64,000 nt of DNA, taken from assembly GCF_009914755.1 (NCBI RefSeq), contig NC_060932.1. One strand, written 5' to 3'. Both the position numbers and the translations under genes were made by a program. Position 1 is the first letter of the stretch; the number at the start of each line of letters is the position of its first letter. The notes beneath the pieces are model-generated. The model did not search any database. It saw only the letters and a list, made by a program, of their open reading frames with translations, and was not told where the DNA came from. This stretch comes from the human T2T-CHM13v2.0 reference genome, Homo sapiens. Shown one piece after another: positions 1,431 through 55,840 of the stretch.

Positions 1431-3139
1431 GAGTCGTTTATTGGTACTAAATTTGTGTCAGTAAAAATGGATTCTATACGTGGGATGGTTTATAAGTATG
1501 TGGAAAAATTCTTTGATGGTTTTTCCTTGAAAAAGTGAAACCTAAATCCACTCCGTTTGGATGTGGGCCTATTTACGGTTGTTGCTTCCTAAACATAAAC
1601 TACGTTTAGGCTGATATTTCAGACAATGAAACCTTTGAGTGCCCGTAGCGGGAAGATCTCGGTTGCTGAGTGCAGGGAAGGAGGATGTAATTCCATCATA
1701 TATACTCTCTGTGCCTACCGCATTTGGAACCATGCGAGTGATACGTATTTATAAAATAACATAAACCAAGCACAAGTACGAACTTAGCAACACTATATTG
1801 AGTTAATAGAACGGTATCTTGTATTTCTTCTGTCCAGGTATACTTATAAATGCCTGCAGGGATTTCACCACCTCAGGGTGGAGAGACTGAATGCTTGTGA
1901 GGGAATTAGGATGGTGGAATATTGGTGTTACCAGGGAAGGGGGCGGGATGTTTGAAAATGCTATGTTTACTCGTTCTTGGGTTCCAATAAAGGAGAAACA
2001 GGGCACAGGAGTCGGAAGGACTAGTGGCAATAGTGATGAAAGGACCTCCTTATCATGCTGGCTATGTTAATTACCCAGGTGTAGGAAGCCATACACTGAG
2101 GCGGAAGATCGCAAGTCAGAGTGGCCGGCAGGCACAACCTCCTGGCACACCAGAGGCAGGTCTTCAATACCCACTGGTTTCCCCAACAGGCTGCGTAAGG
2201 GACCCTGAGCCACAGTGAGTTGGTCAAATGCTCCTGACAGTGTGGAGAAACCAACAGGCAAAACGTGGGTGCAAAAGTGATGAGACCCCACACTTTACAC
2301 TCGTGGTGACAATGAAGCTATTAAGTAACAGCTTCTCAACCTATGCTGTTTCCTGTTGGATGCACATAATCCATTTGCACTGCAGACAATTTTAGGATGT
2401 GGTTTACAGTAAGGAGGATGGTACCTTATGGCAAAAATCTCTCAGAAATTTATGTGTGGTTTTAAAGTCATTCCAGTCCTAGCACGTTGTGCTTTTCAGA
2501 GACGCCATAGCTGTTTTTCCCTTTGTAATATCAAAGCAGTAATATCTTCTCTGGAGGCCTGTTGGGTGAATTTAATGGAATCAAGTTAAGTAGGTGCCAG
2601 AACCGTTGCTGTTTTCCCTCCATAGCCCTGCCACCCACTGTAAAAAGGTTGATGAGATTACTTAATGATTTCCAATTAAGTTGTATTTCCAAATATCATG
2701 ATTTCCATTTTAATGTAGTTGGTATGGAGCTCTGTGAGTGTGTGCTTCTTTTATTATGGATCACGTTCAGCTTCTTTTTATTTGCCTCCTAGTCATAATA
2801 GTAAAACTCTACTCCTCTACTCCGAGGAGTCCCTACCACCCATCTCATCACTTTCCAGCCCAGCACTCTTCATGCTCATTCATTTAAAGCATTCAACATT
2901 GTGTAAATGAATCTTGGAAGGCAAAAGCTACTGAATTTAGCGAATTTGTGGAGGCATTGCCACAAATCAGCCAGGTGAAGTTTCACACAATCGAAGACTG
3001 CACAACTCCTAGAAGGCAGCACTATGCTGCAAACCCAGACGGCCACTCTTCTCACCCCTCGTCCGTTTGCTGTTCTGGATAATGAGGTTCAAAAGTCACC
3101 TAGGCAACTGCCAAAATAGCTGAAATGGAGAAAGGGCTT

Positions 3140-3622
3140 CAGGCTGGTGACTAGCAGAGGTCCACCTGACCCCCGTAAGCTGCTGAACAAGTAGGGCTGC
3201 CAGAAATGTCCCACTAGGGAATTTGGTAGAGACGAAGACATGCTCACCGGACAAGGGTTCCTCCCAGGATACGCCCGAGCGGAAGAAGCGGGCTCTGAGC
3301 CACGCCCTTTCACCCTCCTCTACCCCGCCCTGGGCTGGTGAAGGTGCGCGCCAGGATGTGGACTACTGAGCCCTGAAGAAATAAGTCCTTCCACTTTGAC
3401 CCCATGGAGGATTGCCTGTGAGGAACTTAAACGAGTCTACCAGTGTCTAGACACGGGGGCAGGTCTGTCCGGCACAGCAGCTCCCTCAAGGAGGAGAAGA
3501 GTGAGGAGAAAGGAAACTCAAGTCTCACCATTCTGTCCTGGGAGAGAAGAGGAGGATCTCATCTCTCATCTGTCCAAACAAGGCAAGGAGACTTTCTCTC
3601 ATCTTTCCAAGCAAGGCAAGGA
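3140..3622 (+). pseudogene. Decayed upstream fragment of the REXO1 retrocopy, copy 1
   Basis: Conceptual translation across stops and frameshifts gives PLGNLVETKTCSPDKGSSQDTPERKKRALSHA (3211-3306), QDVDY*ALKK*V, DPMEDCL (3398), NESTSV*T (3430), KEEKSEEKG (3488) and ISHLSKQG. These match my recollection of REXO1 (GKLVERK...SQDAPKLKKRALSHA, DVDYSALEKEV, DPMEECL, NESTSVKT, KEEKSEEKG, ISHLSKQG). The left boundary is approximate. Confidence 0.85.
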
Positions 3623-3628
3623 GACTTT
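3563..3628 (+). repeat. 2 x 33-bp tandem duplication at the REXO1-remnant/HSMAR2 junction
   Basis: ctctcatct[g/t]tccaa[a/g]caaggcaaggagacttt at 3563 and 3596. Confidence 0.9.
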
Positions 3629-4510
3629 TTATCATTAGGAAACAAAAAGAATTTAGAAGGAATGAAAGCAGCCCGTAAGGTGAATTCCTAAGGACTGCCC
3701 ATTGAAACTGACAAAATTGCCCTTGTTTGATGAGAGGAATGAGCAGAGCATTGATGTGGTGAACAAGGATCTAGTGAGACTTTCCCAGCATGTTTCTACC
3801 AAAGCTTTATCTAAGCTTCTCAGAACACTCTCCTAATAAGCAGATGTTTGGCCTTTCAGAAAGTCAACAAGCAAAATGCCTTGAGTGTCCCAAAACACTG
3901 ATGCCATGATGTGGGCTCCTGACTGGCCTCCTTTTCCTTTGACTGGACCACTGCCACCTCTTGGTAGCCATCGCTTTCATGATGCTTTGCCTTGGAGATC
4001 ATATTGGTGAAGCCATGTTCCAACTTCCGCTTACAATTTGTCAGAGGGATGCGTCAGGATCGTGATCCCTCCTGTTTAAAATTTCCACTGATAGCTCTCG
4101 TCGTAACTGCAGCTGATCTGGGCACAGTGGTTTTCACAGCCACTGCAGGATTCATCTTCCACATCTTCTCACCTCTTCTTGAAACAAGCTATACATTCGT
4201 AAAGAGTTCATTTCTTTGGGGTAGTGTCCTTACAAGCTTTTCTTAAAACGTCAATGATTTCTTCAATCTTCCACCCAAGCTTCACCATAAATTTGATGTT
4301 TCCTCTTGCTGCAATTTTCGTGGAATTCATGTTGCTCTGATGGGAGTCCTTTTCAGTGGATGTCTCATCCTTCTTAGTGCCTCAAACTAGATCTAGTTCA
4401 GAAAGGTTATCAGAAGTTAGGACAAGTTTATTTTAGTGCAAACCAGTGGAAATCCATGCATAGTTTCTTCACCACGTGCATTTTCTATGAACCTTTGGAA
4501 GACCACCTGT
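3625..4510 (-). mobile_element. HSMAR2 mariner DNA transposon remnant (5' TIR-like end present, internal deletion near 4135, 3' end missing), copy 1
   Basis: The reverse strand matches recalled HSMAR2 segments: 5' end GGTCTTCCAAAGGTTCATAGAAAATGC, ACTATGCATGGATTTC, ATCAAATTTATGGTGAAGCTTGGGTGGAAG, TGGCTACCAAGAGGTGGCAGTGGTCCAGTCAAAG and GCTCATTCCTCTCATCAAACAAGGGCAATTTTG. Confidence 0.85.
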
Positions 4511-4830
4511 GTTGAACATTGCCCAAGTCCTGGGAGAGAAGTGGGTGCGGTCCGCTTCCTGTCCTCAATTTGCCCGCAGCGGCGGAGTGCACAGAGCAGG
4601 GAAAGGCAGCCCCAGAGGGATCCCGCCCTCCAGCATGCAGCAGACTGCTGGCCCAGTCCTGGCTCCAAGGGGTGCTGTGTGGGCCCAAGCAAGTTGACCA
4701 ACCTCCCTGAACCTTAATTTAATCCTAGGTAGCCCAATTCCAGTAGCCATTATAGGACTGCCCTGCAGGGACAGTTACTTAACTCAGGAAAAGCAACCTA
4801 GCTCCAAGTTTAGCAACCGGGAGTTCCAGT

Positions 4831-4991
4831 TGATTCCATTAGCGCACCCCCTGAGGCATTCCCAAGCTGGAGTCTGGTGGAAGATGAGGCTCAGTGTGAT
4901 TGGACTGAAGCACCAACCTATCAAGGAGAAGTCCCACCCAGTCTGCCCTGTGCCTATATAAAGGCGACAAGTGGCGGCCGCAGCACTCATT
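4831..4991 (+). promoter_or_regulatory. Putative core promoter: TATA box, inverted CCAAT, DUX4-like site (also +12190, +24380, +36573, +48765)
   Basis: TATATAAAGG at 4955-4964, ATTGG at 4899-4903, Inr-like CACTCATT ~30 nt downstream of the TATA, and TGATTCCATTA at 4831-4841. The first ATG is ~60 nt further on, with A at -3. Confidence 0.7.
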
Positions 4992-4992
4992 G

Positions 4993-5406
4993 AAGCCGCC
5001 AGTTGGGAGAGGAGCAGAGCCAGGCCGGTGCTCCCGAAGGCAGCAAGATGTTGCGAGCCACAGCTCCCTGCTGGTTCCCCCCTGGATACCCAGAAGCTAA
5101 GAAGGTGGCCGAGGAGGCGGCCCTGGAGGCAAGCCGCCATTTGGGAGGGGAGCAGAGCCAGGCCGGTGCTCCCGAAGGCAGCAAGATGTTGCGAGCCACA
5201 GCTCCCTGCTGGTTCCGCCCTGGATACCCAGAAGCTAAGAAGGTGGCCGAGGAGGCGGCCCCGGAGGCAAGCCGCCATTTGGGAGCGGAGCAGAGCCCGG
5301 CCGGTGCTCCCGAAGGCAGCAAGATGTTGCGAGCCACAGCTCCCTGCTGGTTCCCACCTGGATACCCAGAAGCTAAGAAGGTGGCCGAGGAGGCGGCCCT
5401 CGAGGC
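4993..5406 (+). repeat. 3 x 138-bp (46-aa) in-frame tandem repeat at the 5' end of the gene; recurs per unit
   Basis: Units start with 'aagccgcca' at 4993, 5131 and 5269. ATGs are at 5048, 5186 and 5324. Peptide [25 protein letters not shown] occurs three times. Confidence 0.97.
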
Positions 5407-7075
5407 TCCAGAATTCCCACTGCCCTCTCATCAGCCTGCCCAGAGCTTCGGGCTCTGGGTGCCCCAGATGCACAAGCAGGCCTCAGCATTTGTGGACATC
5501 CAGGCGGAGCCCCAGAACAGGGGTCCGGCGGTGCCCCCAGCGTGGCCCAAGATGGTGACGGAGTCGTGCTACTTCCCTGCGCAGAGGGGATCGGCCTGCC
5601 GCTTGCCAGCCGCCCCAAGGCTGACAGAGAGGCCCTCGGGAGTCCGCATCTCAGCCCCCAGGAAGAGGAAGACGATCGCCCACTCTTCCAGCCCTTGCTT
5701 GGTCACAGGTTACACAGATGCCAAGAGAACCCGGGTGGCCAGCAGCAGCCAACGCTCCCGTGGCTCCAAGGTCGGCAGACAGCCAGGGAAGACGCGCAAC
5801 AGGTCAGGGATGGCATGCAAGACCACCGCCACCACCAGCTCTAAGCGAATCGTCCGTCGTGCATCCTTACCGAGTTTGAGTTTGAAGAAACCCATTATCC
5901 TCCGAAGCTCTGGGTGCCAAGTCCCCACCGTCCTCCGCCGAGGCTATCTCCAACTGTTCACCGAAGAGTGTCTCAAGTTCTGCGCCTCCAAGCAGGAGGC
6001 CGAGGAGAAGGCGCTGAACGAGGAGAAGGTGGCCTACGACTGCAGCCCCAACAAGAACAGGTACCTGAACGTGGTCCTGAACACCCTCAAGAGACTGAAG
6101 GGCCTGACCCCCAGCTCCATGCCCGGCCTCAGCAGGGCCGCCCTGTACAGCCGCCTCCAGGAGTTCCTGCTCACCCAGGACCAGCTCAAGGAGAACGGCT
6201 ACCCCTTCCCGCACCCCGAGCGGCCCGGAGGCGCCGTCCTCTTCACTGGCCAGGGGAAGGGGCCCGGCGACTCCTCCTGCAGGGTCTGCTGCCGTTGTGG
6301 CACCGAGTACCTGGTGTCCTCCTCGGGCCGCTGTGTACGCGACCAGTTGTGTTATTATCACTGGGGGCGGGTCCGCTCGAGCCAGGTGGCTGGAGGCCGG
6401 GTTAGCCAGTACACCTGCTGTGCAGCTGCTCCTGGCTCTGTGGGCTGCCAGGTGGCAAAGCAGCACGTGCGGGACGGCCGCAAGGAGAGCCTCGATGGCT
6501 TCGTGGAGACCTTCAAGAAAGAGTTGTCCAGAGACGCTTATCCAGGAATCTACGCCTTGGACTGTGAGATGTGCTACACCACGCATGGCCTAGAGCTGAC
6601 CCGCGTCACCGTGGTGGACGCCGACATGCGAGTGGTGTACGACACCTTCGTCAAGCCCGACAACGAGATCGTGGACTACAACACCAGGTTTTCCGGAGTC
6701 ACCGAGGCCGACGTCGCCAAGACGAGCATCACGTTGCCCCAAGTCCAAGCCATCCTGCTGAGCTTTTTCAGCGCCCAAACCATCCTCATCGGGCACAGCC
6801 TGGAGAGCGACCTGCTGGCCCTGAAGCTCATCCACAGCACCGTGGTGGACACGGCCGTGCTCTTCCCGCACTACCTGGGTTTCCCCTACAAGCGCTCCCT
6901 CAGGAATCTCGCGGCCGACTACCTGGCACAGATCATCCAGGACAGCCAGGACGGCCACAACTCCAGCGAGGACGCAAACGCCTGCCTGCAGCTGGTGATG
7001 TGGAAGGTCCGACAGCGCGCCCAGATCCAGCCACGCCACCGGTCCGCCTCTCCCGCCGCCCTGGCCTGTCCTTAG
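5048..7075 (+). CDS. REXO1L1: REXO1-like retrogene (exonuclease GOR), 675 aa, DEDDh 3'-5' exonuclease; copy 1
   Basis: Intronless ORF from the first ATG at 5048 (the track's 5003 start is TTG) to TAG at 7073-7075. Motifs: ExoI YALDCEM (D505/E507), Exo[10 protein letters not shown] (D588), ExoIII GHNSSED (H637/D642). A Cys/His-rich REXO1-type region (CCRCG...CYYHWG...TCC) precedes it. Family members are often annotated as pseudogenes (REXO1LxP), and the exact paralog number cannot be assigned here. Confidence 0.9.
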
Positions 7076-7201
7076 CCCCAGGCCTCTTCCAAAACCGCCA
7101 TCAGTCCCGAGAGCTCACCCTGCCCACCTCGCCGCAAAGCGAAAGAAACTGGAGCAGCCGGCGGCAGGAGAGGGCAAAAAGCCAAGAGTAACCCCAACCC
7201 C

Positions 7202-7400
7202 CCACTCCCGGTCCCCCGGAATCCCTGCCGCGGCCCCTCGGGCCTGTCCACATCCCTCTGCCCCTCCCAGACCTCTGTCCTTCCACCAATCGCCTCCCGC
7301 AGCCCCGAGCCGCCACTCCCAGTCCCCCGAGTCCCTGCCGCGCGCCCTCGCGCCTGTCCACATCCCTCTGCCCATCCGAGACCTCTGTCCTTACACCACT
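7202..7400 (+). repeat. 2 x ~111-bp diverged C-rich tandem duplication downstream of the stop
   Basis: ccactccc[g/a]gtccccc...gcctgtccacatccctctgccc...agacctctgtcctt begins at 7202 and again at 7313. Confidence 0.85.
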
Positions 7401-7639: not shown

Positions 7640-11311
<3,672 letters not shown>

Positions 11312-12101: not shown

Positions 12102-15100
12102 AACTGTTCCAGAACAGTGACTTAGTGAAAAACTGGATTTCCACTCTGTCAGACAAATTTCGGAAAACACTGAAGTAGGGCATTTCTGATTGATTTTACC
12201 GTTCCCGGAATTTTATTTTCCTTTATCACTTAGACCCCTTCTGTGGGGATTTAATAAATAAACGTCTTTTGTAGTGTATGTTATTTCATTTTATTTTTAT
12301 AATTTATATGAATTTTAATTTTAACTTGACAAATAAAAATTATATATATTTATGGCATACAACATGATGTTTCATACGTGTATACATTGTGGAATGACAA
12401 AATCAAGCTAATTAACACACTCGTTTCCTCACATACTGATTTTAATGTGATGAGGACATGTCTAAAATCTACTCTTATAGCAATTTTCAAGTATACAATA
12501 CATACTTATACACTGTAGATGCCAGGCTGTTCAATAGATCTCTAGAACCATTCCTCTCTGAAATTTTGTATCATGAGACTATCATCTCTCCAGTCCCTCC
12601 CTGACCCCTGCCTCGGGTAACCACCGTTCTGCTCTCTACAGCTATGAGTTGCATTGTTTGAGATTGCACATATAAGTGAGATCATGCAGTATTTGTCTTT
12701 TTGTGCTTGCTTTTTAAATCTTTATTATGTAATTATTTATTTTTTGAGACAGGGTCTCAGTCTGTCACCCAGGCTGGAGTACAGTGACACAAACACGGCT
12801 CACTCACCACGGCCTCCACCTCCCGGGGTCGAGAGTTCCTCCCGCTTCAGCCTCCTGAATAGCTAGGACTACAGGCGTCCAACGCCACACTTGGCTAATT
12901 TTTGTGTTTCTTTTAGAGATGGGGTTTCACCATGTTGCCCAGGTTCATCTCCAACTCCTGGGCTCAACGCTTCCACCTGCCTTGGCCTCCCAAAGTACTG
13001 GGATTACAGGCATGAGCCACCGTGCCTGGCCTTTGCTTTCTTTCACTCAGTGTACCATCCTCTAGGCTCATTCGTGTTGCCAATGAGATGATTTCTTTCT
13101 TTTTTAAGGCTGAATTGTGTTCTATTGGGTATATGTACCGCTTTTCTTTTTATGTTTAATTTTTTTTGGTTTTTTGAGACAGAGTTTCGCTCGCGTCGCC
13201 CAGGCTGGAGTGCAGTGGCGTGATTTCGAGTCACTACAACCTCTGCCTCCCAGGTTGAAGTGATTCTCCTGCCTCACCTGAGATTAGAGGCATGTACCGG
13301 CATGTCCGGCTAATTTTGTGTTTCTAGTAGAGATGGGGTTTCACCATGTTGGCCAGGCTGGTCTTGAACTCCAACAATTCTAATTCAACTAATTTATTTT
13401 ATAGAAATATTTATGTGTGAGAAACAATATTTTCAAGAGTCAAAGATTTAAAACTGCTTAATTGTACATCACTAAGTGGCTGGCTAATAAATTATAGTAC
13501 GTTCATCCTTACGGAAGAATACTTTGCAGCTAAAACAGAACGAAAGAGAGGAAACTCTTCAAAATGTTAACTGGGAATGACGTTCAAGACTTATTGTTAA
13601 ATAAAACAAATTGAGAAGAAGAGTCGTTTATTGGTACTAAATTTGTGTCAGTAAAAATGGATTCTATACGTGGGATGGTTTATAAGTATGTGGAAAAATT
13701 CTTTGATGGTTTTTCCTTGAAAAAGTGAAACCTAAATCCACTCCGTTTGGATGTGGGCCTATTTACGGTTGTTGCTTCCTAAACATAAACTACGTTTAGG
13801 CTGATATTTCAGACAATGAAACCTTTGAGTGCCCGTAGCGGGAAGATCTCGGTTGCTGAGTGCAGGGAAGGAGGATGTAATTCCATCATATATACTCTCT
13901 GTGCCTACCGCATTTGGAACCATGCGAGTGATACGTATTTATAAAATAACATAAACCAAGCACAAGTACGAACTTAGCAACACTATATTGAGTTAATAGA
14001 ACGGTATCTTGTATTTCTTCTGTCCAGGTATACTTATAAATGCCTGCAGGGATTTCACCACCTCAGGGTGGAGAGACTCAATGCTTGTGAGGGAATTAGG
14101 ATGGTGGAATATTGGTGTTACCAGGGAAGGGGGCGGGATGTTTGAAAATGCTATGTTTACTCGTTCTTGGGTTCCAATAAAGGAGAAACAGGGCACAGGA
14201 GTCGGAAGGACTAGTGGCAATAGTGATGAAAGGACCTCCTTATCATGCTGGCTATGTTAATTACCCAGGTGTAGGAAGCCATACACTGAGGCGGAAGATC
14301 GCAAGTCAGAGTGGCCGGCAGGCACAACCTCCTGGCACACCAGAGGCAGGTCTTCAATACCCACTGGTTTCCCCAACAGGCTGCGTAAGGGACCCTGAGC
14401 CACAGTGAGTTGGTCAAATGCTCCTGACAGTGTGGAGAAACCAACAGGCAAAACGTGGGTGCAAAAGTGATGAGACCCCACACTTTACACTCGTGGTGAC
14501 AATGAAGCTATTAAGTAACAGCTTCTCAACCTATGCTGTTTCCTGTTGGATGCACATAATCCATTTGCACTGCAGACAATTTTAGGATGTGGTTTACAGT
14601 AAGGTGGATGGTACCTTATGGCAAAAATCTCTCAGAAATTTATGTGTGGTTTTAAAGTCATTCCAGTCCTAGCACGTTGTGCTTTTCAGAGACGCCATAG
14701 CTGTTTTTCCCTTTGTAATATCAAAGCAGTAATATGTTCTCTGGAGGCCTGTTGGGTGAATTTAATGGAATCAAGTTAAGTAGGTGCCAGAACCATTGCT
14801 GTTTTCCCTCCATAGCCCTGCCACCCACTGTAAAAAGGTTGATGAGATTACTTAATGATTTCCAATTAAGTTGTATTTCCAAATATCATGATTTCCATTT
14901 TAATGTAGTTGGTATGGAGCTCTGTGAGTGTGTGCTTCTTTTATTATGGATCACGTTCAGCTTCTTTTTATTTGCCTCCTAGTCATAATAGTAAAACTCT
15001 ACTCCTCTACTCCGAGGAGTCCCTACCACCCATCTCATCACTTTCCAGCCCAGCACTCTTCATGCTCATTCATTTAAAGCATTCAACATTGTGTAAATGA

Positions 15101-16700: not shown

Positions 16701-17237
16701 GTTGAACATTGCCCAAGTCCTGGGAGAGAAGTGGGTGCGGTCCGCTTCCTGTCCTCAATTTGCCCGCAGCGGCGGAGTGCACAGAGCAGGGAAAGGCAGC
16801 CCCAGAGGGATCCCGCCCTCCAGCATGCAGCAGACTGCTGGCCCAGTCCTGGCTCCAAGGGGTGCTGTGTGGGCCCAAGCAAGTTGACCAACCTCCCTGA
16901 ACCTTAATTTAATCCTAGGTAGCCCAATTCCAGTAGCCATTATAGGACTGCCCTGCAGGGACAGTTACTTAACTCAGGAAAAGCAACCTAGCTCCAAGTT
17001 TAGCAACCGGGAGTTCCAGTTGATTCCATTAGCGCACCCCCTGAGGCATTCCCAAGCTGGAGTCTGGTGGAAGATGAGGCTCAGTGTGATTGGACTGAAG
17101 CACCAACCTATCAAGGAGAAGTCCCACCCAGTCTGCCCTGTGCCTATATAAAGGCGACAAGTGGCGGCCGCAGCACTCATTGAAGCCGCCAGTTGGGAGA
17201 GGAGCAGAGCCAGGCCGGTGCTCCCGAAGGCAGCAAG

Positions 17238-19265
17238 ATGTTGCGAGCCACAGCTCCCTGCTGGTTCCCCCCTGGATACCCAGAAGCTAAGAAGGTGGCC
17301 GAGGAGGCGGCCCTGGAGGCAAGCCGCCATTTGGGAGGGGAGCAGAGCCAGGCCGGTGCTCCCGAAGGCAGCAAGATGTTGCGAGCCACAGCTCCCTGCT
17401 GGTTCCGCCCTGGATACCCAGAAGCTAAGAAGGTGGCCAAGGAGGCGGCCCCGGAGGCAAGCCGCCATTTGGGAGCGGAGCAGAGCCCGGCCGGTGCTCC
17501 CGAAGGCAGCAAGATGTTGCGAGCCACAGCTCCCTGCTGGTTCCCACCTGGATACCCAGAAGCTAAGAAGGTGGCCGAGGAGGCGGCCCTCGAGGCTCCA
17601 GAATTCCCACTGCCCTCTCATCAGCCTGCCCAGAGCTTCGGGCTCTGGGTGCCCCAGATGCACAAGCAGGCCTCAGCATTTGTGGACATCCAGGCGGAGC
17701 CCCAGAACAGGGGTCCGGCGGTGCCCCCAGCGTGGCCCAAGATGGTGACGGAGTCGTGCTACTTCCCTGCGCAGAGGGGATCGGCCTGCCGCTTGCCAGC
17801 CGCCCCAAGGCTGACAGAGAGGCCCTCGGGAGTCCGCATCTCAGCCCCCAGGAAGAGGAAGACGATCGCCCACTCTTCCAGCCCTTGCTTGGTCACAGGT
17901 TACACAGATGCCAAGAGAACCCGGGTGGCCAGCAGCAGCCAACGCTCCCGTGGCTCCAAGGTCGGCAGACAGCCAGGGAAGACGCGCAACAGGTCAGGGA
18001 TGGCATGCAAGACCACCGCCACCACCAGCTCTAAGCGAATCGTCCGTCGTGCATCCTTACCGAGTTTGAGTTTGAAGAAACCCATTATCCTCCGAAGCTC
18101 TGGGTGCCAAGTCCCCACCGTCCTCCGCCGAGGCTATCTCCAACTGTTCACCGAAGAGTGTCTCAAGTTCTGCGCCTCCAAGCAGGAGGCCGAGGAGAAG
18201 GCGCTGAACGAGGAGAAGGTGGCCTACGACTGCAGCCCCAACAAGAACAGGTACCTGAACGTGGTCCTGAACACCCTCAAGAGACTGAAGGGCCTGACCC
18301 CCAGCTCCATGCCCGGCCTCAGCAGGGCCGCCCTGTACAGCCGCCTCCAGGAGTTCCTGCTCACCCAGGACCAGCTCAAGGAGAACGGCTACCCCTTCCC
18401 GCACCCCGAGCGGCCCGGAGGCGCCGTCCTCTTCACTGGCCAGGGGAAGGGGCCCGGCGACTCCTCCTGCAGGGTCTGCTGCCGTTGTGGCACCGAGTAC
18501 CTGGTGTCCTCCTCGGGCCGCTGTGTACGCGACCAGTTGTGTTATTATCACTGGGGGCGGGTCCGCTCGAGCCAGGTGGCTGGAGGCCGGGTTAGCCAGT
18601 ACACCTGCTGTGCAGCTGCTCCTGGCTCTGTGGGCTGCCAGGTGGCAAAGCAGCACGTGCGGGACGGCCGCAAGGAGAGCCTCGATGGCTTCGTGGAGAC
18701 CTTCAAGAAAGAGTTGTCCAGAGACGCTTATCCAGGAATCTACGCCTTGGACTGTGAGATGTGCTACACCACGCATGGCCTAGAGCTGACCCGCGTCACC
18801 GTGGTGGACGCCGACATGCGAGTGGTGTACGACACCTTCGTCAAGCCCGACAACGAGATCGTGGACTACAACACCAGGTTTTCCGGAGTCACCGAGGCCG
18901 ACGTCGCCAAGACGAGCATCACGTTGCCCCAAGTCCAAGCCATCCTGCTGAGCTTTTTCAGCGCCCAAACCATCCTCATCGGGCACAGCCTGGAGAGCGA
19001 CCTGCTGGCCCTGAAGCTCATCCACAGCACCGTGGTGGACACGGCCGTGCTCTTCCCGCACTACCTGGGTTTCCCCTACAAGCGCTCCCTCAGGAATCTC
19101 GCGGCCGACTACCTGGCACAGATCATCCAGGACAGCCAGGACGGCCACAACTCCAGCGAGGACGCAAACGCCTGCCTGCAGCTGGTGATGTGGAAGGTCC
19201 GACAGCGCGCCCAGATCCAGCCACGCCACCGGTCCGCCTCTCCCGCCGCCCTGGCCTGTCCTTAG
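17238..19265 (+). CDS. REXO1L1: REXO1-like retrogene (GOR), copy 2 (E68K variant)
   Basis: Same intact 675-aa ORF. G>A at 17439 gives K68. Confidence 0.9.
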
Positions 19266-29427: not shown

Positions 29428-31455
29428 ATGTTGCGAGCCACAGCTCCCTGCTGGTTCCCCCCTGGATACCCAGAAGCTAAGAAGGTGGCCGAGGAGGCGG
29501 CCCTGGAGGCAAGCCGCCATTTGGGAGGGGAGCAGAGCCAGGCCGGTGCTCCCGAAGGCAGCAAGATGTTGCGAGCCACAGCTCCCTGCTGGTTCCGCCC
29601 TGGATACCCAGAAGCTAAGAAGGTGGCCAAGGAGGCGGCCCCGGAGGCAAGCCGCCATTTGGGAGCGGAGCAGAGCCCGGCCGGTGCTCCCGAAGGCAGC
29701 AAGATGTTGCGAGCCACAGCTCCCTGCTGGTTCCCACCTGGATACCCAGAAGCTAAGAAGGTGGCCGAGGAGGCGGCCCTCGAGGCTCCAGAATTCCCAC
29801 TGCCCTCTCATCAGCCTGCCCAGAGCTTCGGGCTCTGGGTGCCCCAGATGCACAAGCAGGCCTCAGCATTTGTGGACATCCAGGCGGAGCCCCAGAACAG
29901 GGGTCCGGCGGTGCCCCCAGCGTGGCCCAAGATGGTGACGGAGTCGTGCTACTTCCCTGCGCAGAGGGGATCGGCCTGCCGCTTGCCAGCCGCCCCAAGG
30001 CTGACAGAGAGGCCCTCGGGAGTCCGCATCTCAGCCCCCAGGAAGAGGAAGACGATCGCCCACTCTTCCAGCCCTTGCTTGGTCACAGGTTACACAGATG
30101 CCAAGAGAACCCGGGTGGCCAGCAGCAGCCAACGCTCCCGTGGCTCCAAGGTCGGCAGACAGCCAGGGAAGACGCGCAACAGGTCAGGGATGGCATGCAA
30201 GACCACCGCCACCACCAGCTCTAAGCGAATCGTCCGTCGTGCATCCTTACCGAGTTTGAGTTTGAAGAAACCCATTATCCTCCGAAGCTCTGGGTGCCAA
30301 GTCCCCACCGTCCTCCGCCGAGGCTATCTCCAACTGTTCACCGAAGAGTGTCTCAAGTTCTGCGCCTCCAAGCAGGAGGCCGAGGAGAAGGCGCTGAACG
30401 AGGAGAAGGTGGCCTACGACTGCAGCCCCAACAAGAACAGGTACCTGAACGTGGTCCTGAACACCCTCAAGAGACTGAAGGGCCTGACCCCCAGCTCCAT
30501 GCCCGGCCTCAGCAGGGCCGCCCTGTACAGCCGCCTCCAGGAGTTCCTGCTCACCCAGGACCAGCTCAAGGAGAACGGCTACCCCTTCCCGCACCCCGAG
30601 CGGCCCGGAGGCGCCGTCCTCTTCACTGGCCAGGGGAAGGGGCCCGGCGACTCCTCCTGCAGGGTCTGCTGCCGTTGTGGCACCGAGTACCTGGTGTCCT
30701 CCTCGGGCCGCTGTGTACGCGACCAGTTGTGTTATTATCACTGGGGGCGGGTCCGCTCGAGCCAGGTGGCTGGAGGCCGGGTTAGCCAGTACACCTGCTG
30801 TGCAGCTGCTCCTGGCTCTGTGGGCTGCCAGGTGGCAAAGCAGCACGTGCGGGACGGCCGCAAGGAGAGCCTCGATGGCTTCGTGGAGACCTTCAAGAAA
30901 GAGTTGTCCAGAGACGCTTATCCAGGAATCTACGCCTTGGACTGTGAGATGTGCTACACCACGCATGGCCTAGAGCTGACCCGCGTCACCGTGGTGGACG
31001 CCGACATGCGAGTGGTGTACGACACCTTCGTCAAGCCCGACAACGAGATCGTGGACTACAACACCAGGTTTTCCGGAGTCACCGAGGCCGACGTCGCCAA
31101 GACGAGCATCACGTTGCCCCAAGTCCAAGCCATCCTGCTGAGCTTTTTCAGCGCCCAAACCATCCTCATCGGGCACAGCCTGGAGAGCGACCTGCTGGCC
31201 CTGAAGCTCATCCACAGCACCGTGGTGGACACGGCCGTGCTCTTCCCGCACTACCTGGGTTTCCCCTACAAGCGCTCCCTCAGGAATCTCGCGGCCGACT
31301 ACCTGGCACAGATCATCCAGGACAGCCAGGACGGCCACAACTCCAGCGAGGACGCAAACGCCTGCCTGCAGCTGGTGATGTGGAAGGTCCGACAGCGCGC
31401 CCAGATCCAGCCACGCCACCGGTCCGCCTCTCCCGCCGCCCTGGCCTGTCCTTAG
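29428..31455 (+). CDS. REXO1L1: REXO1-like retrogene (GOR), copy 3 (K68)
   Basis: Intact ORF; translation matches copy 2. Confidence 0.9.
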
Positions 31456-41620: not shown

Positions 41621-43648
41621 ATGTTGCGAGCCACAGCTCCCTGCTGGTTCCCCCCTGGATACCCAGAAGCTAAGAAGGTGGCCGAGGAGGCGGCCCTGGA
41701 GGCAAGCCGCCATTTGGGAGGGGAGCAGAGCCAGGCCGGTGCTCCCGAAGGCAGCAAGATGTTGCGAGCCACAGCTCCCTGCTGGTTCCGCCCTGGATAC
41801 CCAGAAGCTAAGAAGGTGGCCAAGGAGGCGGCCCCGGAGGCAAGCCGCCATTTGGGAGCGGAGCAGAGCCCGGCCGGTGCTCCCGAAGGCAGCAAGATGT
41901 TGCGAGCCACAGCTCCCTGCTGGTTCCCACCTGGATACCCAGAAGCTAAGAAGGTGGCCGAGGAGGCGGCCCTCGAGGCTCCAGAATTCCCACTGCCCTC
42001 TCATCAGCCTGCCCAGAGCTTCGGGCTCTGGGTGCCCCAGATGCACAAGCAGGCCTCAGCATTTGTGGACATCCAGGCGGAGCCCCAGAACAGGGGTCCG
42101 GCGGTGCCCCCAGCGTGGCCCAAGATGGTGACGGAGTCGTGCTACTTCCCTGCGCAGAGGGGATCGGCCTGCCGCTTGCCAGCCGCCCCAAGGCTGACAG
42201 AGAGGCCCTCGGGAGTCCGCATCTCAGCCCCCAGGAAGAGGAAGACGATCGCCCACTCTTCCAGCCCTTGCTTGGTCACAGGTTACACAGATGCCAAGAG
42301 AACCCGGGTGGCCAGCAGCAGCCAACGCTCCCGTGGCTCCAAGGTCGGCAGACAGCCAGGGAAGACGCGCAACAGGTCAGGGATGGCATGCAAGACCACC
42401 GCCACCACCAGCTCTAAGCGAATCGTCCGTCGTGCATCCTTACCGAGTTTGAGTTTGAAGAAACCCATTATCCTCCGAAGCTCTGGGTGCCAAGTCCCCA
42501 CCGTCCTCCGCCGAGGCTATCTCCAACTGTTCACCGAAGAGTGTCTCAAGTTCTGCGCCTCCAAGCAGGAGGCCGAGGAGAAGGCGCTGAACGAGGAGAA
42601 GGTGGCCTACGACTGCAGCCCCAACAAGAACAGGTACCTGAACGTGGTCCTGAACACCCTCAAGAGACTGAAGGGCCTGACCCCCAGCTCCATGCCCGGC
42701 CTCAGCAGGGCCGCCCTGTACAGCCGCCTCCAGGAGTTCCTGCTCACCCAGGACCAGCTCAAGGAGAACGGCTACCCCTTCCCGCACCCCGAGCGGCCCG
42801 GAGGCGCCGTCCTCTTCACTGGCCAGGGGAAGGGGCCCGGCGACTCCTCCTGCAGGGTCTGCTGCCGTTGTGGCACCGAGTACCTGGTGTCCTCCTCGGG
42901 CCGCTGTGTACGCGACCAGTTGTGTTATTATCACTGGGGGCGGGTCCGCTCGAGCCAGGTGGCTGGAGGCCGGGTTAGCCAGTACACCTGCTGTGCAGCT
43001 GCTCCTGGCTCTGTGGGCTGCCAGGTGGCAAAGCAGCACGTGCGGGACGGCCGCAAGGAGAGCCTCGATGGCTTCGTGGAGACCTTCAAGAAAGAGTTGT
43101 CCAGAGACGCTTATCCAGGAATCTACGCCTTGGACTGTGAGATGTGCTACACCACGCATGGCCTAGAGCTGACCCGCGTCACCGTGGTGGACGCCGACAT
43201 GCGAGTGGTGTACGACACCTTCGTCAAGCCCGACAACGAGATCGTGGACTACAACACCAGGTTTTCCGGAGTCACCGAGGCCGACGTCGCCAAGACGAGC
43301 ATCACGTTGCCCCAAGTCCAAGCCATCCTGCTGAGCTTTTTCAGCGCCCAAACCATCCTCATCGGGCACAGCCTGGAGAGCGACCTGCTGGCCCTGAAGC
43401 TCATCCACAGCACCGTGGTGGACACGGCCGTGCTCTTCCCGCACTACCTGGGTTTCCCCTACAAGCGCTCCCTCAGGAATCTCGCGGCCGACTACCTGGC
43501 ACAGATCATCCAGGACAGCCAGGACGGCCACAACTCCAGCGAGGACGCAAACGCCTGCCTGCAGCTGGTGATGTGGAAGGTCCGACAGCGCGCCCAGATC
43601 CAGCCACGCCACCGGTCCGCCTCTCCCGCCGCCCTGGCCTGTCCTTAG
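41621..43648 (+). CDS. REXO1L1: REXO1-like retrogene (GOR), copy 4 (K68)
   Basis: Intact ORF; translation matches copy 2. Confidence 0.9.
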
Positions 43649-53812: not shown

Positions 53813-55840
53813 ATGTTGCGAGCCACAGCTCCCTGCTGGTTCCCCCCTGGATACCCAGAAGCTAAGAAGGTGGCCGAGGAGGCGGCCCTGGAGGCAAGCC
53901 GCCATTTGGGAGGGGAGCAGAGCCAGGCCGGTGCTCCCGAAGGCAGCAAGATGTTGCGAGCCACAGCTCCCTGCTGGTTCCGCCCTGGATACCCAGAAGC
54001 TAAGAAGGTGGCCGAGGAGGCGGCCCCGGAGGCAAGCCGCCATTTGGGAGCGGAGCAGAGCCCGGCCGGTGCTCCCGAAGGCAGCAAGATGTTGCGAGCC
54101 ACAGCTCCCTGCTGGTTCCCACCTGGATACCCAGAAGCTAAGAAGGTGGCCGAGGAGGCGGCCCTCGAGGCTCCAGAATTCCCACTGCCCTCTCATCAGC
54201 CTGCCCAGAGCTTCGGGCTCTGGGTGCCCCAGATGCACAAGCAGGCCTCAGCATTTGTGGACATCCAGGCGGAGCCCCAGAACAGGGGTCCGGCGGTGCC
54301 CCCAGCGTGGCCCAAGATGGTGACGGAGTCGTGCTACTTCCCTGCGCAGAGGGGATCGGCCTGCCGCTTGCCAGCCGCCCCAAGGCTGACAGAGAGGCCC
54401 TCGGGAGTCCGCATCTCAGCCCCCAGGAAGAGGAAGACGATCGCCCACTCTTCCAGCCCTTGCTTGGTCACAGGTTACACAGATGCCAAGAGAACCCGGG
54501 TGGCCAGCAGCAGCCAACGCTCCCGTGGCTCCAAGGTCGGCAGACAGCCAGGGAAGACGCGCAACAGGTCAGGGATGGCATGCAAGACCACCGCCACCAC
54601 CAGCTCTAAGCGAATCGTCCGTCGTGCATCCTTACCGAGTTTGAGTTTGAAGAAACCCATTATCCTCCGAAGCTCTGGGTGCCAAGTCCCCACCGTCCTC
54701 CGCCGAGGCTATCTCCAACTGTTCACCGAAGAGTGTCTCAAGTTCTGCGCCTCCAAGCAGGAGGCCGAGGAGAAGGCGCTGAACGAGGAGAAGGTGGCCT
54801 ACGACTGCAGCCCCAACAAGAACAGGTACCTGAACGTGGTCCTGAACACCCTCAAGAGACTGAAGGGCCTGACCCCCAGCTCCATGCCCGGCCTCAGCAG
54901 GGCCGCCCTGTACAGCCGCCTCCAGGAGTTCCTGCTCACCCAGGACCAGCTCAAGGAGAACGGCTACCCCTTCCCGCACCCCGAGCGGCCCGGAGGCGCC
55001 GTCCTCTTCACTGGCCAGGGGAAGGGGCCCGGCGACTCCTCCTGCAGGGTCTGCTGCCGTTGTGGCACCGAGTACCTGGTGTCCTCCTCGGGCCGCTGTG
55101 TACGCGACCAGTTGTGTTATTATCACTGGGGGCGGGTCCGCTCGAGCCAGGTGGCTGGAGGCCGGGTTAGCCAGTACACCTGCTGTGCAGCTGCTCCTGG
55201 CTCTGTGGGCTGCCAGGTGGCAAAGCAGCACGTGCGGGACGGCCGCAAGGAGAGCCTCGATGGCTTCGTGGAGACCTTCAAGAAAGAGTTGTCCAGAGAC
55301 GCTTATCCAGGAATCTACGCCTTGGACTGTGAGATGTGCTACACCACGCATGGCCTAGAGCTGACCCGCGTCACCGTGGTGGACGCCGACATGCGAGTGG
55401 TGTACGACACCTTCGTCAAGCCCGACAACGAGATCGTGGACTACAACACCAGGTTTTCCGGAGTCACCGAGGCCGACGTCGCCAAGACGAGCATCACGTT
55501 GCCCCAAGTCCAAGCCATCCTGCTGAGCTTTTTCAGCGCCCAAACCATCCTCATCGGGCACAGCCTGGAGAGCGACCTGCTGGCCCTGAAGCTCATCCAC
55601 AGCACCGTGGTGGACACGGCCGTGCTCTTCCCGCACTACCTGGGTTTCCCCTACAAGCGCTCCCTCAGGAATCTCGCGGCCGACTACCTGGCACAGATCA
55701 TCCAGGACAGCCAGGACGGCCACAACTCCAGCGAGGACGCAAACGCCTGCCTGCAGCTGGTGATGTGGAAGGTCCGACAGCGCGCCCAGATCCAGCCACG
55801 CCACCGGTCCGCCTCTCCCGCCGCCCTGGCCTGTCCTTAG
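53813..55840 (+). CDS. REXO1L1: REXO1-like retrogene (GOR), copy 5 (E68)
   Basis: Intact ORF; translation matches copy 1. Confidence 0.9.

What the first reader, a model, noticed from the sequence alone, without database searches (positions are those of the whole stretch)
4715..4991. DUX4-consensus site upstream of the TATA box: candidate embryonic genome activation exonuclease array
Seen: TGATTCCATTA at 4831-4841 (reverse strand TAATGGAATCA) lies ~115 bp upstream of the TATA. A near-match TAATTTAATCC is at 4715-4725, and the same 11-mer TAATGGAATCA occurs at 2573-2583. All are conserved in every copy that covers them. Established: the DUX4 motif is TAAYBBAATCA, and DUX4 activates multicopy cleavage-stage gene families (PRAMEF, TRIM43/49, MBD3L, ZSCAN4). 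Inference: this array could be a dosage-amplified RNA exonuclease switched on at zygotic genome activation, in germline or in FSHD muscle, and overlooked because reads multi-map.
Basis: inference. Interest (0 to 1): 0.7.

Follow-up and report, generated by a model that had tools for sequence, protein, structure and literature searches.

The report
Amplified exonuclease retrogene, weak DUX4 site
The DUX4-like word is really there but is a variant that DUX4 left unbound at every single-copy site checked; it sits in a promoter that this multi-copy, still-intact RNA-nuclease gene (GOR/REXO1L1, labelled a pseudogene) took from an intron of its parent gene, and that promoter is likely a germline one rather than a DUX4 switch.

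Summary
The motifs are at the stated places in every unit of the known 12.19-kb REXO1L1/GOR macrosatellite, but identity between copies is uninformative (P=0.94 by chance). TAATGGAATCA fits only the loose consensus TAAYBBAATCA. In a published DUX4 ChIP-seq table, 0 of 9 single-copy sites with this exact word lay under a peak, against 16 of 17 for two strict-consensus words; the near-match scored 0 of 2. No table or paper searched links the array to DUX4, though those data are largely blind to multi-mappers. What is really there: each unit holds a part-spliced retrocopy of REXO1 that carried along the parent's intron, and with it a promoter and a new N-terminus. The parent keeps the CCAAT and GC boxes and an open in-frame intronic ATG frame, also seen in pig and whale, but lacks both DUX-like sites and the TATA box. 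The 675-aa frame has all five DEDDh residues, is kept from apes to New World monkeys, and promoter plus ORF hold 1 of 64 variable columns among copies. So: a selected, probably germline (testis-type) retrogene misfiled as a pseudogene; direct DUX4 control about 15%.

The parts
2573..2583 (+). Distal TAATGGAATCA, outside the retrocopy; repeats at 14763, 26953, 39146, 51338, 63531
2650..2660 (-). TAATCTCATCA, one mismatch to the DUX4 consensus, 77 bases from the distal site
   Evidence: the one single-copy occurrence in the test interval was unbound
3000..3623 (+). Decayed 5' part of the retrocopy: end of REXO1's large exon spliced to the next exon (intron absent), with a short end duplication
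3624..4509 (-). Mariner-type DNA transposon remnant (HSMAR2 by recall); 4187-4509 is shared with the REXO1 intron at 75-77%
   Evidence: Pfam PF01359 at 3836-3976, E 4.8e-7
4510..4990 (+). Promoter inherited from the REXO1 intron (C19:1795760-1795300, 67% identity over aligned bases)
4715..4725 (+). TAATTTAATCC near-match (contains TAATCC); absent from the parent
   Evidence: 0 of 2 single-copy sites bound
4831..4841 (-). TAATGGAATCA, GG-centred loose DUX4 match; absent from the parent; repeats at 17021, 29211, 41404, 53596
4899..4903 (-). CCAAT box, shared with the parent (11 of 14 surrounding bases)
4930..4940 (+). GC/GT box AGTCCCACCCA, shared with the parent (10 of 11)
4955..4962 (+). TATA box TATATAAA; the parent has no TATA consensus here
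4991..5404 (+). Three tandem 138-bp copies holding the ATG and the [10 protein letters not shown](P/R)PGYPE start; single in the ape and monkey proteins retrieved
5048..7075 (+). GOR/REXO1L1 ORF, 675 aa: intron-derived N-terminus, EloA-BP1 domain, DEDDh exonuclease (D505 E507 D588 H637 D642); also 17238-19265, 29428-31455, 41621-43648, 53813-55840
7076..7394 (+). Remnant of the REXO1 3' UTR; the parent's proximal AATAAA is not kept
8537..9154 (+). LINE-1 ORF2 fragment inside each unit
   Evidence: RVT_1 E 2.1e-15

Best explanation
Each 12.19-kb unit carries an intact retrocopy of REXO1 whose promoter and first 60 codons come from an intron of the parent gene, and it is likely transcribed in the germline (testis type) from its CCAAT, GC and TATA boxes to give a predicted short 3'-5' exonuclease, while the TAATGGAATCA word is probably too weak to make it a DUX4 target. 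Shown: origin from REXO1 exons plus retained intron; shared CCAAT and GC boxes; open frame with catalytic residues; low variation among copies; non-binding of this word elsewhere. Inferred: a long REXO1 RNA spliced into the mariner remnant was retroposed in an early primate, carrying an internal promoter; AT-ward drift (and perhaps selection) produced the TATA and the homeodomain-like words; methylation silences it in soma; tandem amplification raises dose.
For: Retrocopy anatomy. Promoter homology, with CCAAT (11 of 14) and GC box (10 of 11) kept but the DUX word (4 of 11 by MAFFT, 7 of 11 by a second aligner), near-match (5 of 11) and TATA (2 of 8) not. Promoter differences lean to A/T in GOR, 74 vs 34. 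Human parent intron has a Kozak ATG and open frame into the next exon; an unnamed-source protein P0015 joins this N-terminus to a core identical to pig REXO1; a fin whale REXO1 model includes it. DEDHD in 44 of 44 aligned proteins; exonuclease domain 90-92% identical in four New World monkeys, 83% in a titi copy; dN/dS vs parent 0.21 in that domain, bootstrap 0.11-0.34. 1 of 64 variable columns in 4510-7075, 21% of the length, P=4e-6; 7 vs 32 variable columns in equal 1500-base CDS and flank stretches of 20 copies. Word unbound 0 of 9. REXO1 is described as enriched in spermatids or testis (bioRxiv 2025.10.17.683089, one passage). Gene region methylated in CHM13 (PMC8099727).
Against: No expression data for the array in testis or embryo were seen; the testis step rests on one passage about the parent gene, not the isoform or the array. 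RT-PCR found the transcript in cancer lines and after X-rays in HEK293 (PMC4422118), which fits DUX4-independent derepression but also other readings. No AATAAA between the stop and 8059. Low variation could be gene conversion rather than selection. Homeodomain-type words are in excess of shuffles and two sit in the promoter that the parent lacks; the ancestral state could not be polarised. Protein evidence is one peptide-spectrum match (PMC7320927). Nuclease activity is untested.
Confidence: 0.58

Rival explanations
1. Direct DUX4 target switched on at embryonic genome activation: after retroposition the promoter gained two DUX-like sites and a TATA box, and weak sites act together across 70 or more copies.
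For: Loose consensus 113 bases before the TATA (2 of 2000 shuffles) and 4 TAATNNNATCA per unit; both promoter words absent from the parent; a related word TAATTCAATCC was active, and paired sites were synergistic, in PMC4730607 (spacing results not read); the word occurs 37,680 times in the genome vs 1,248 for its reversal and is in an HSat2A1 probe (PMC11622622), and HSATII is DUX4-bound; existing tables are largely blind to such arrays.
Against: 0 of 9, 0 of 2 and 0 of 1 single-copy occurrences of the three words under peaks vs 16 of 17 strict sites (Fisher P=3e-6 for the first); one central G already cut reporter induction to 2.4-fold vs about 8-fold; no strict site in the unit; the HSATII preprint attributes binding to close and consensus matches without naming this word in the passages read; no REXO1L in four DUX4/8-cell supplement sets.
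Confidence: 0.15
2. Expressed in cleavage-stage embryos but through other factors (demethylation, NF-Y on CCAAT, KLF/SP on the GC box, K50 or other paired-type homeodomain proteins on TAATCC), so at most an indirect DUX4 target.
For: TAATCC at 4720, CCAAT, GC box and TATA in 250 bases; same architecture as recalled multicopy cleavage-stage genes; FAM90A1 and PRAMEF1 are in DUX4-induced lists.
Against: TAATCC is not above chance (225 of 2000 shuffles); absent from 8-cell and 8CLC marker lists, though those lists may omit pseudogenes.
Confidence: 0.17
3. A non-functional pseudogene array kept uniform by gene conversion; all motifs are chance.
For: Called a pseudogene in print; no gene annotated in this window; no nearby canonical poly(A) signal; copy number varies 53-326 among people.
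Against: Frame and catalytic residues kept across apes and New World monkeys with domain-graded conservation; variation drops over promoter and ORF only.
Confidence: 0.1

Closest known systems
REXO1L1/GOR 8q21.2 VNTR (PMC8099727, PMC4063668, PMC2588610)
   Same: This is that locus: 12.19-kb unit, about 71 copies in CHM13, neocentromere site, large copy-number range in apes.
   Different: Papers read call it a pseudogene or of unknown function; the passages read do not describe its intron-derived promoter, retained frame across simians or any DUX4 link.
REXO1 (EloA-BP1), DEDDh 3'-5' exonucleases (SDN1, ISG20, PAN2)
   Same: EloA-BP1 and RNase_T domains, all five catalytic residues.
   Different: Lacks about the first 600 residues of REXO1; starts with an intron-encoded peptide, tripled in human; 83% identical to parent in the nuclease domain.
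Multicopy DUX4 targets (PRAMEF, TRIM43/49, MBD3L, ZSCAN4)
   Same: Clustered near-identical copies, TATA promoter, poor mappability (partly recalled).
   Different: No strict TAAYYYAATCA site in the unit; no binding or induction evidence found.
Retrogenes that inherit a parental promoter (recalled class)
   Same: Spliced exon junctions plus parental non-coding DNA serving as promoter.
   Different: The promoter is an internal intronic one, and the copy was then amplified as a macrosatellite.

Membership tests
Direct DUX4 target gene | Match to the loose consensus TAAYBBAATCA near the start site | tested here: met
Direct DUX4 target gene | Match to the ChIP-seq consensus TAAT[T/C][T/C]AATCA (PMC4730607) | tested here: not met
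   0 hits of TAAYYYAATCA in the window
Direct DUX4 target gene | The word is one that DUX4 occupies in chromatin | tested here: not met
   0 of 9 single-copy sites under peaks vs 16 of 17; small sample, myoblasts
Direct DUX4 target gene | ChIP peak at the locus itself | tested here: inconclusive
   No chr8 peak with coordinates starting 8656, 8657, 8679 or 8680; this covers only part of the hg19 array, the hg19 position is derived from recalled offsets, and multi-mappers were removed
Direct DUX4 target gene | RNA induced by DUX4 or at the 8-cell stage | tested here: inconclusive
   Name absent from supplements searched; tables cut, filtered or blind to multicopy genes
Direct DUX4 target gene | Motif-dependent reporter activation | not testable with these tools
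   needs bench work
DEDDh exonuclease | D-x-E, D, H-x4-D residues in an RNase_T domain | tested here: met
DEDDh exonuclease | Measured nuclease activity | not testable with these tools
   none
Retrogene of REXO1 | Parental introns precisely absent | tested here: met
   consecutive window stretches match separate chr19 exons; exact exon junction
Retrogene of REXO1 | Open frame under purifying selection | tested here: met
   no primate DNA, so no lineage dN/dS
Retrogene of REXO1 | Poly(A) remnant and target-site duplication | not tested
   ends are decayed; homology traced to 3000 and 7394 only
Retrogene of REXO1 | Expression in a normal tissue | not testable with these tools
   only cell-line RT-PCR and one peptide in print

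The most novel reading that the evidence does not exclude
REXO1 hides an internal germline isoform that mammals have retroposed more than once; in simians the copy rewired its inherited promoter by gaining a TATA box and paired DUX-type sites, and the 50-300-copy array now delivers a burst of a short exonuclease at embryonic genome activation and in DUX4-positive muscle or tumours, unseen because reads multi-map and the gene is labelled a pseudogene.
Probability: 0.15. Interest if true: 0.75.

Novelty: new member of a known kind. Interest (0 to 1): 0.42.

Why it matters
One of the highest-copy human genes is filed as a pseudogene, yet looks intact and selected, with a traceable promoter. That gives a defined start site, isoform and catalytic mutant to test, and points to an internal REXO1 isoform. 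If DUX4 control held, a copy-number-variable nuclease would become a candidate for RNA clearance in embryos and a modifier in FSHD. The result also warns that the loose DUX4 consensus admits a GG-centred word that was unbound wherever it could be checked.

Tried and rejected
Conservation of the motif among copies as evidence: rejected. Motif-plus-TATA spacing as a signature: 1,369 genome matches, with overlaps, vs 814 control, many in repeats, so not specific. Searching for other human retrocopies with the parent's intron: only the parent matched, and the search missed even the array, so it is insensitive. One versus several origins of the short forms in primates, rodents, hare and bats: groupings differed between trees; one clade had support 50, neither shown nor rejected (6 of 44 rows left out). 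Literature: ten searches listed no paper tying REXO1L to DUX4 or embryos or describing its retro-origin; only listings were seen for most hits. Three wanted papers were not held under four ids; the eLife data table was not held; one search was a wrong id; one search hit a figure file. Pfam and PDB found nothing for two of three mariner pieces and PDB nothing for the third. No fold or complex job was run.

Full report
Locus. The window is five and a quarter units of a 12,190-12,193-base tandem repeat, the REXO1L1/GOR array of 8q21.2: about 71 units in CHM13, 53-326 copies among people, a 3-kb methylated stretch over the gene (PMC8099727, passages), up to about 860 copies in a gorilla (PMC4063668, passages). 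Each of the five units that cover it has a 675-aa frame, though no gene is annotated in the window.

Observation. All three words are at the stated coordinates, 113 bases separate the proximal one from TATATAAA, and all 71 genomic copies of its flanking 28-mer keep it. Shuffles give the loose consensus 0.116 times per unit against 2 seen (3 of 500), and TAATNNNATCA 0.34 against 4 (0 of 500); these are post hoc. Invariance among copies is expected, P=0.94.

Is it a DUX4 site? TAAYBBAATCA is in print (3 papers, listing only), but the ChIP-seq consensus is TAAT[T/C][T/C]AATCA, and one central G lowered reporter induction to 2.4-fold from about 8-fold (PMC4730607, parts 2 and 3 of 5). The window has no strict match. 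I tested the exact word on data. Part 10 of 400 of Table S1 of PMC3836709 lists 126 DUX4 peaks on hg19 chr1:67.52-71.43 Mb. Genome pattern searches gave every occurrence of six words in the matching CHM13 interval. The assembly offset (587-589 kb) was taken from strict sites and checked by sequence on 6 of 6 neighbouring peaks. Under a peak: TAATCTAATCA 9 of 9, TAATCCAATCA 7 of 8, TAATGTAATCA 4 of 6, TAATGGAATCA 0 of 9 (nearest peaks 1.1-25 kb away), TAATTTAATCC 0 of 2, TAATCTCATCA 0 of 1 (one search read against by hand). Limits: small numbers (upper 95% bound 28%), strict sites also served as anchors, one GG site had an anchor on one side only, and the data are over-expression in myoblasts.

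Direct evidence at the locus. None found. REXO1L is absent from supplements of PMC10553841 (3 files, one cut), PMC8901440 (4 files), PMC8990217 (5 files, one cut) and 12 of 19 files of PMC3836709; no chr8 peak began with four tested coordinate prefixes. This is weak: multi-mappers were removed, and TRIM43 has reads in 1 of 27 embryo cells in one of these tables. Supplements not seen (eLife table; bioRxiv files; Jagannathan 2016) could bear on this.

What the promoter is. REXO1 on chr19 was fetched. Consecutive stretches of the unit match separate REXO1 exons, with an exact junction at 3482/3483: a retrocopy, cut at about 3000. After the second matched exon the sequence runs into a mariner remnant (PF01359; HSMAR2 by recall) and then follows the parent's intron without a break from 4187 through the promoter into the next exon. 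That the source RNA was spliced into the mariner is inferred; that part of the parent is now Alu-like sequence (recognised by recall). The promoter is 67% identical to the intron. The parent shares the CCAAT region (11 of 14) and GC box (10 of 11) but not the DUX word (4 of 11; 7 of 11 in another alignment), the near-match (5 of 11) or the TATA (2 of 8). Differences lean to A/T in GOR, 74 to 34, so drift could explain gain here or loss in the GC-rich parent; no outgroup DNA was available.

The protein. GOR's start, [12 protein letters not shown], matches an open frame in the human REXO1 intron with a strong ATG context, in frame with the next exon. P0015, from an unnamed source, joins such an N-terminus to a core identical to pig REXO1, and a fin whale REXO1 model includes it. 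This points to an internal short isoform of REXO1; intron retention is the alternative. Short proteins with this start occur in apes, New World monkeys, three strepsirrhines, hare, beaver, squirrel and Myotis (120 of 197 hits listed). Simian GOR is one clade (support 100); whether the others share its origin is unresolved. All 44 aligned proteins keep D, E, D, H, D. dN/dS against the parent is 0.40 overall and 0.21 in the nuclease domain. Among five copies only 1 of 64 variable columns lies in promoter plus ORF (P=4e-6), and 20 best-matching copies show 7 vs 32 in unselected CDS and flank; 20 of 20 read open for 671 codons, a set biased to near-identical copies.

Mechanism. Most likely a retrogene driven by its inherited CCAAT/GC core plus TATA, silent when methylated and active in germ cells, giving many copies of a shortened 3'-5' exonuclease. 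The testis step is inferred from retrogene biology (recalled) and one passage calling REXO1 spermatid- or testis-enriched. Transcripts were reported in cancer lines and irradiated HEK293 (PMC4422118, passages) and one peptide match in melanoma (PMC7320927). PMC2588610 (passages) adds array size only.

Verdict. Observation confirmed; DUX4 control unlikely but not excluded (0.15); the intron-derived promoter and retained function of a 'pseudogene' array were not found in ten searches and are the part worth following. Interest 0.42.

Noticed in passing
L024:5284-5104 (C19:1795284-1795104, minus): Open in-frame ATG frame in a human REXO1 intron, with CCAAT and GC boxes upstream: candidate internal promoter and short isoform, echoed in pig-like P0015 and whale P0121.
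   Followed up: partly
window 4991-5404; P0121: The WFPPG peptide is tandemly multiplied in human GOR (3 times, one copy with R for P) and, separately, in the fin whale REXO1 model (5 times). PPG[Y/H] resembles GYF-domain ligands (recalled, untested).
   Followed up: no
window 4510-7075: Promoter plus ORF is about 15-fold less variable among copies than the rest of the unit (1 vs 63 variable columns): selection or focused gene conversion.
   Followed up: partly
window 2573-2720 and 1688-1698: Cluster of homeodomain-type words (TAATGGAATCA, TAATCTCATCA, TAATTCCATCA) outside the retrocopy; origin of this DNA not identified.
   Followed up: partly
window 4982-4992: CAGCACTCATT near the predicted start also occurs at the start of the PRAMEF1 5' UTR listed; probably chance.
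   Followed up: no
window 5048-55840: Five intact 675-aa frames of the same length as the annotated LOC124906706-9 models are unannotated in this window.
   Followed up: yes
G000 C8:86095611-86109312 and 86800986-86897838: Unit spacings of 6,837 bases and of about 12,051 bases (138 shorter) appear elsewhere in the array: partial units and probably units with two N-terminal repeats.
   Followed up: no
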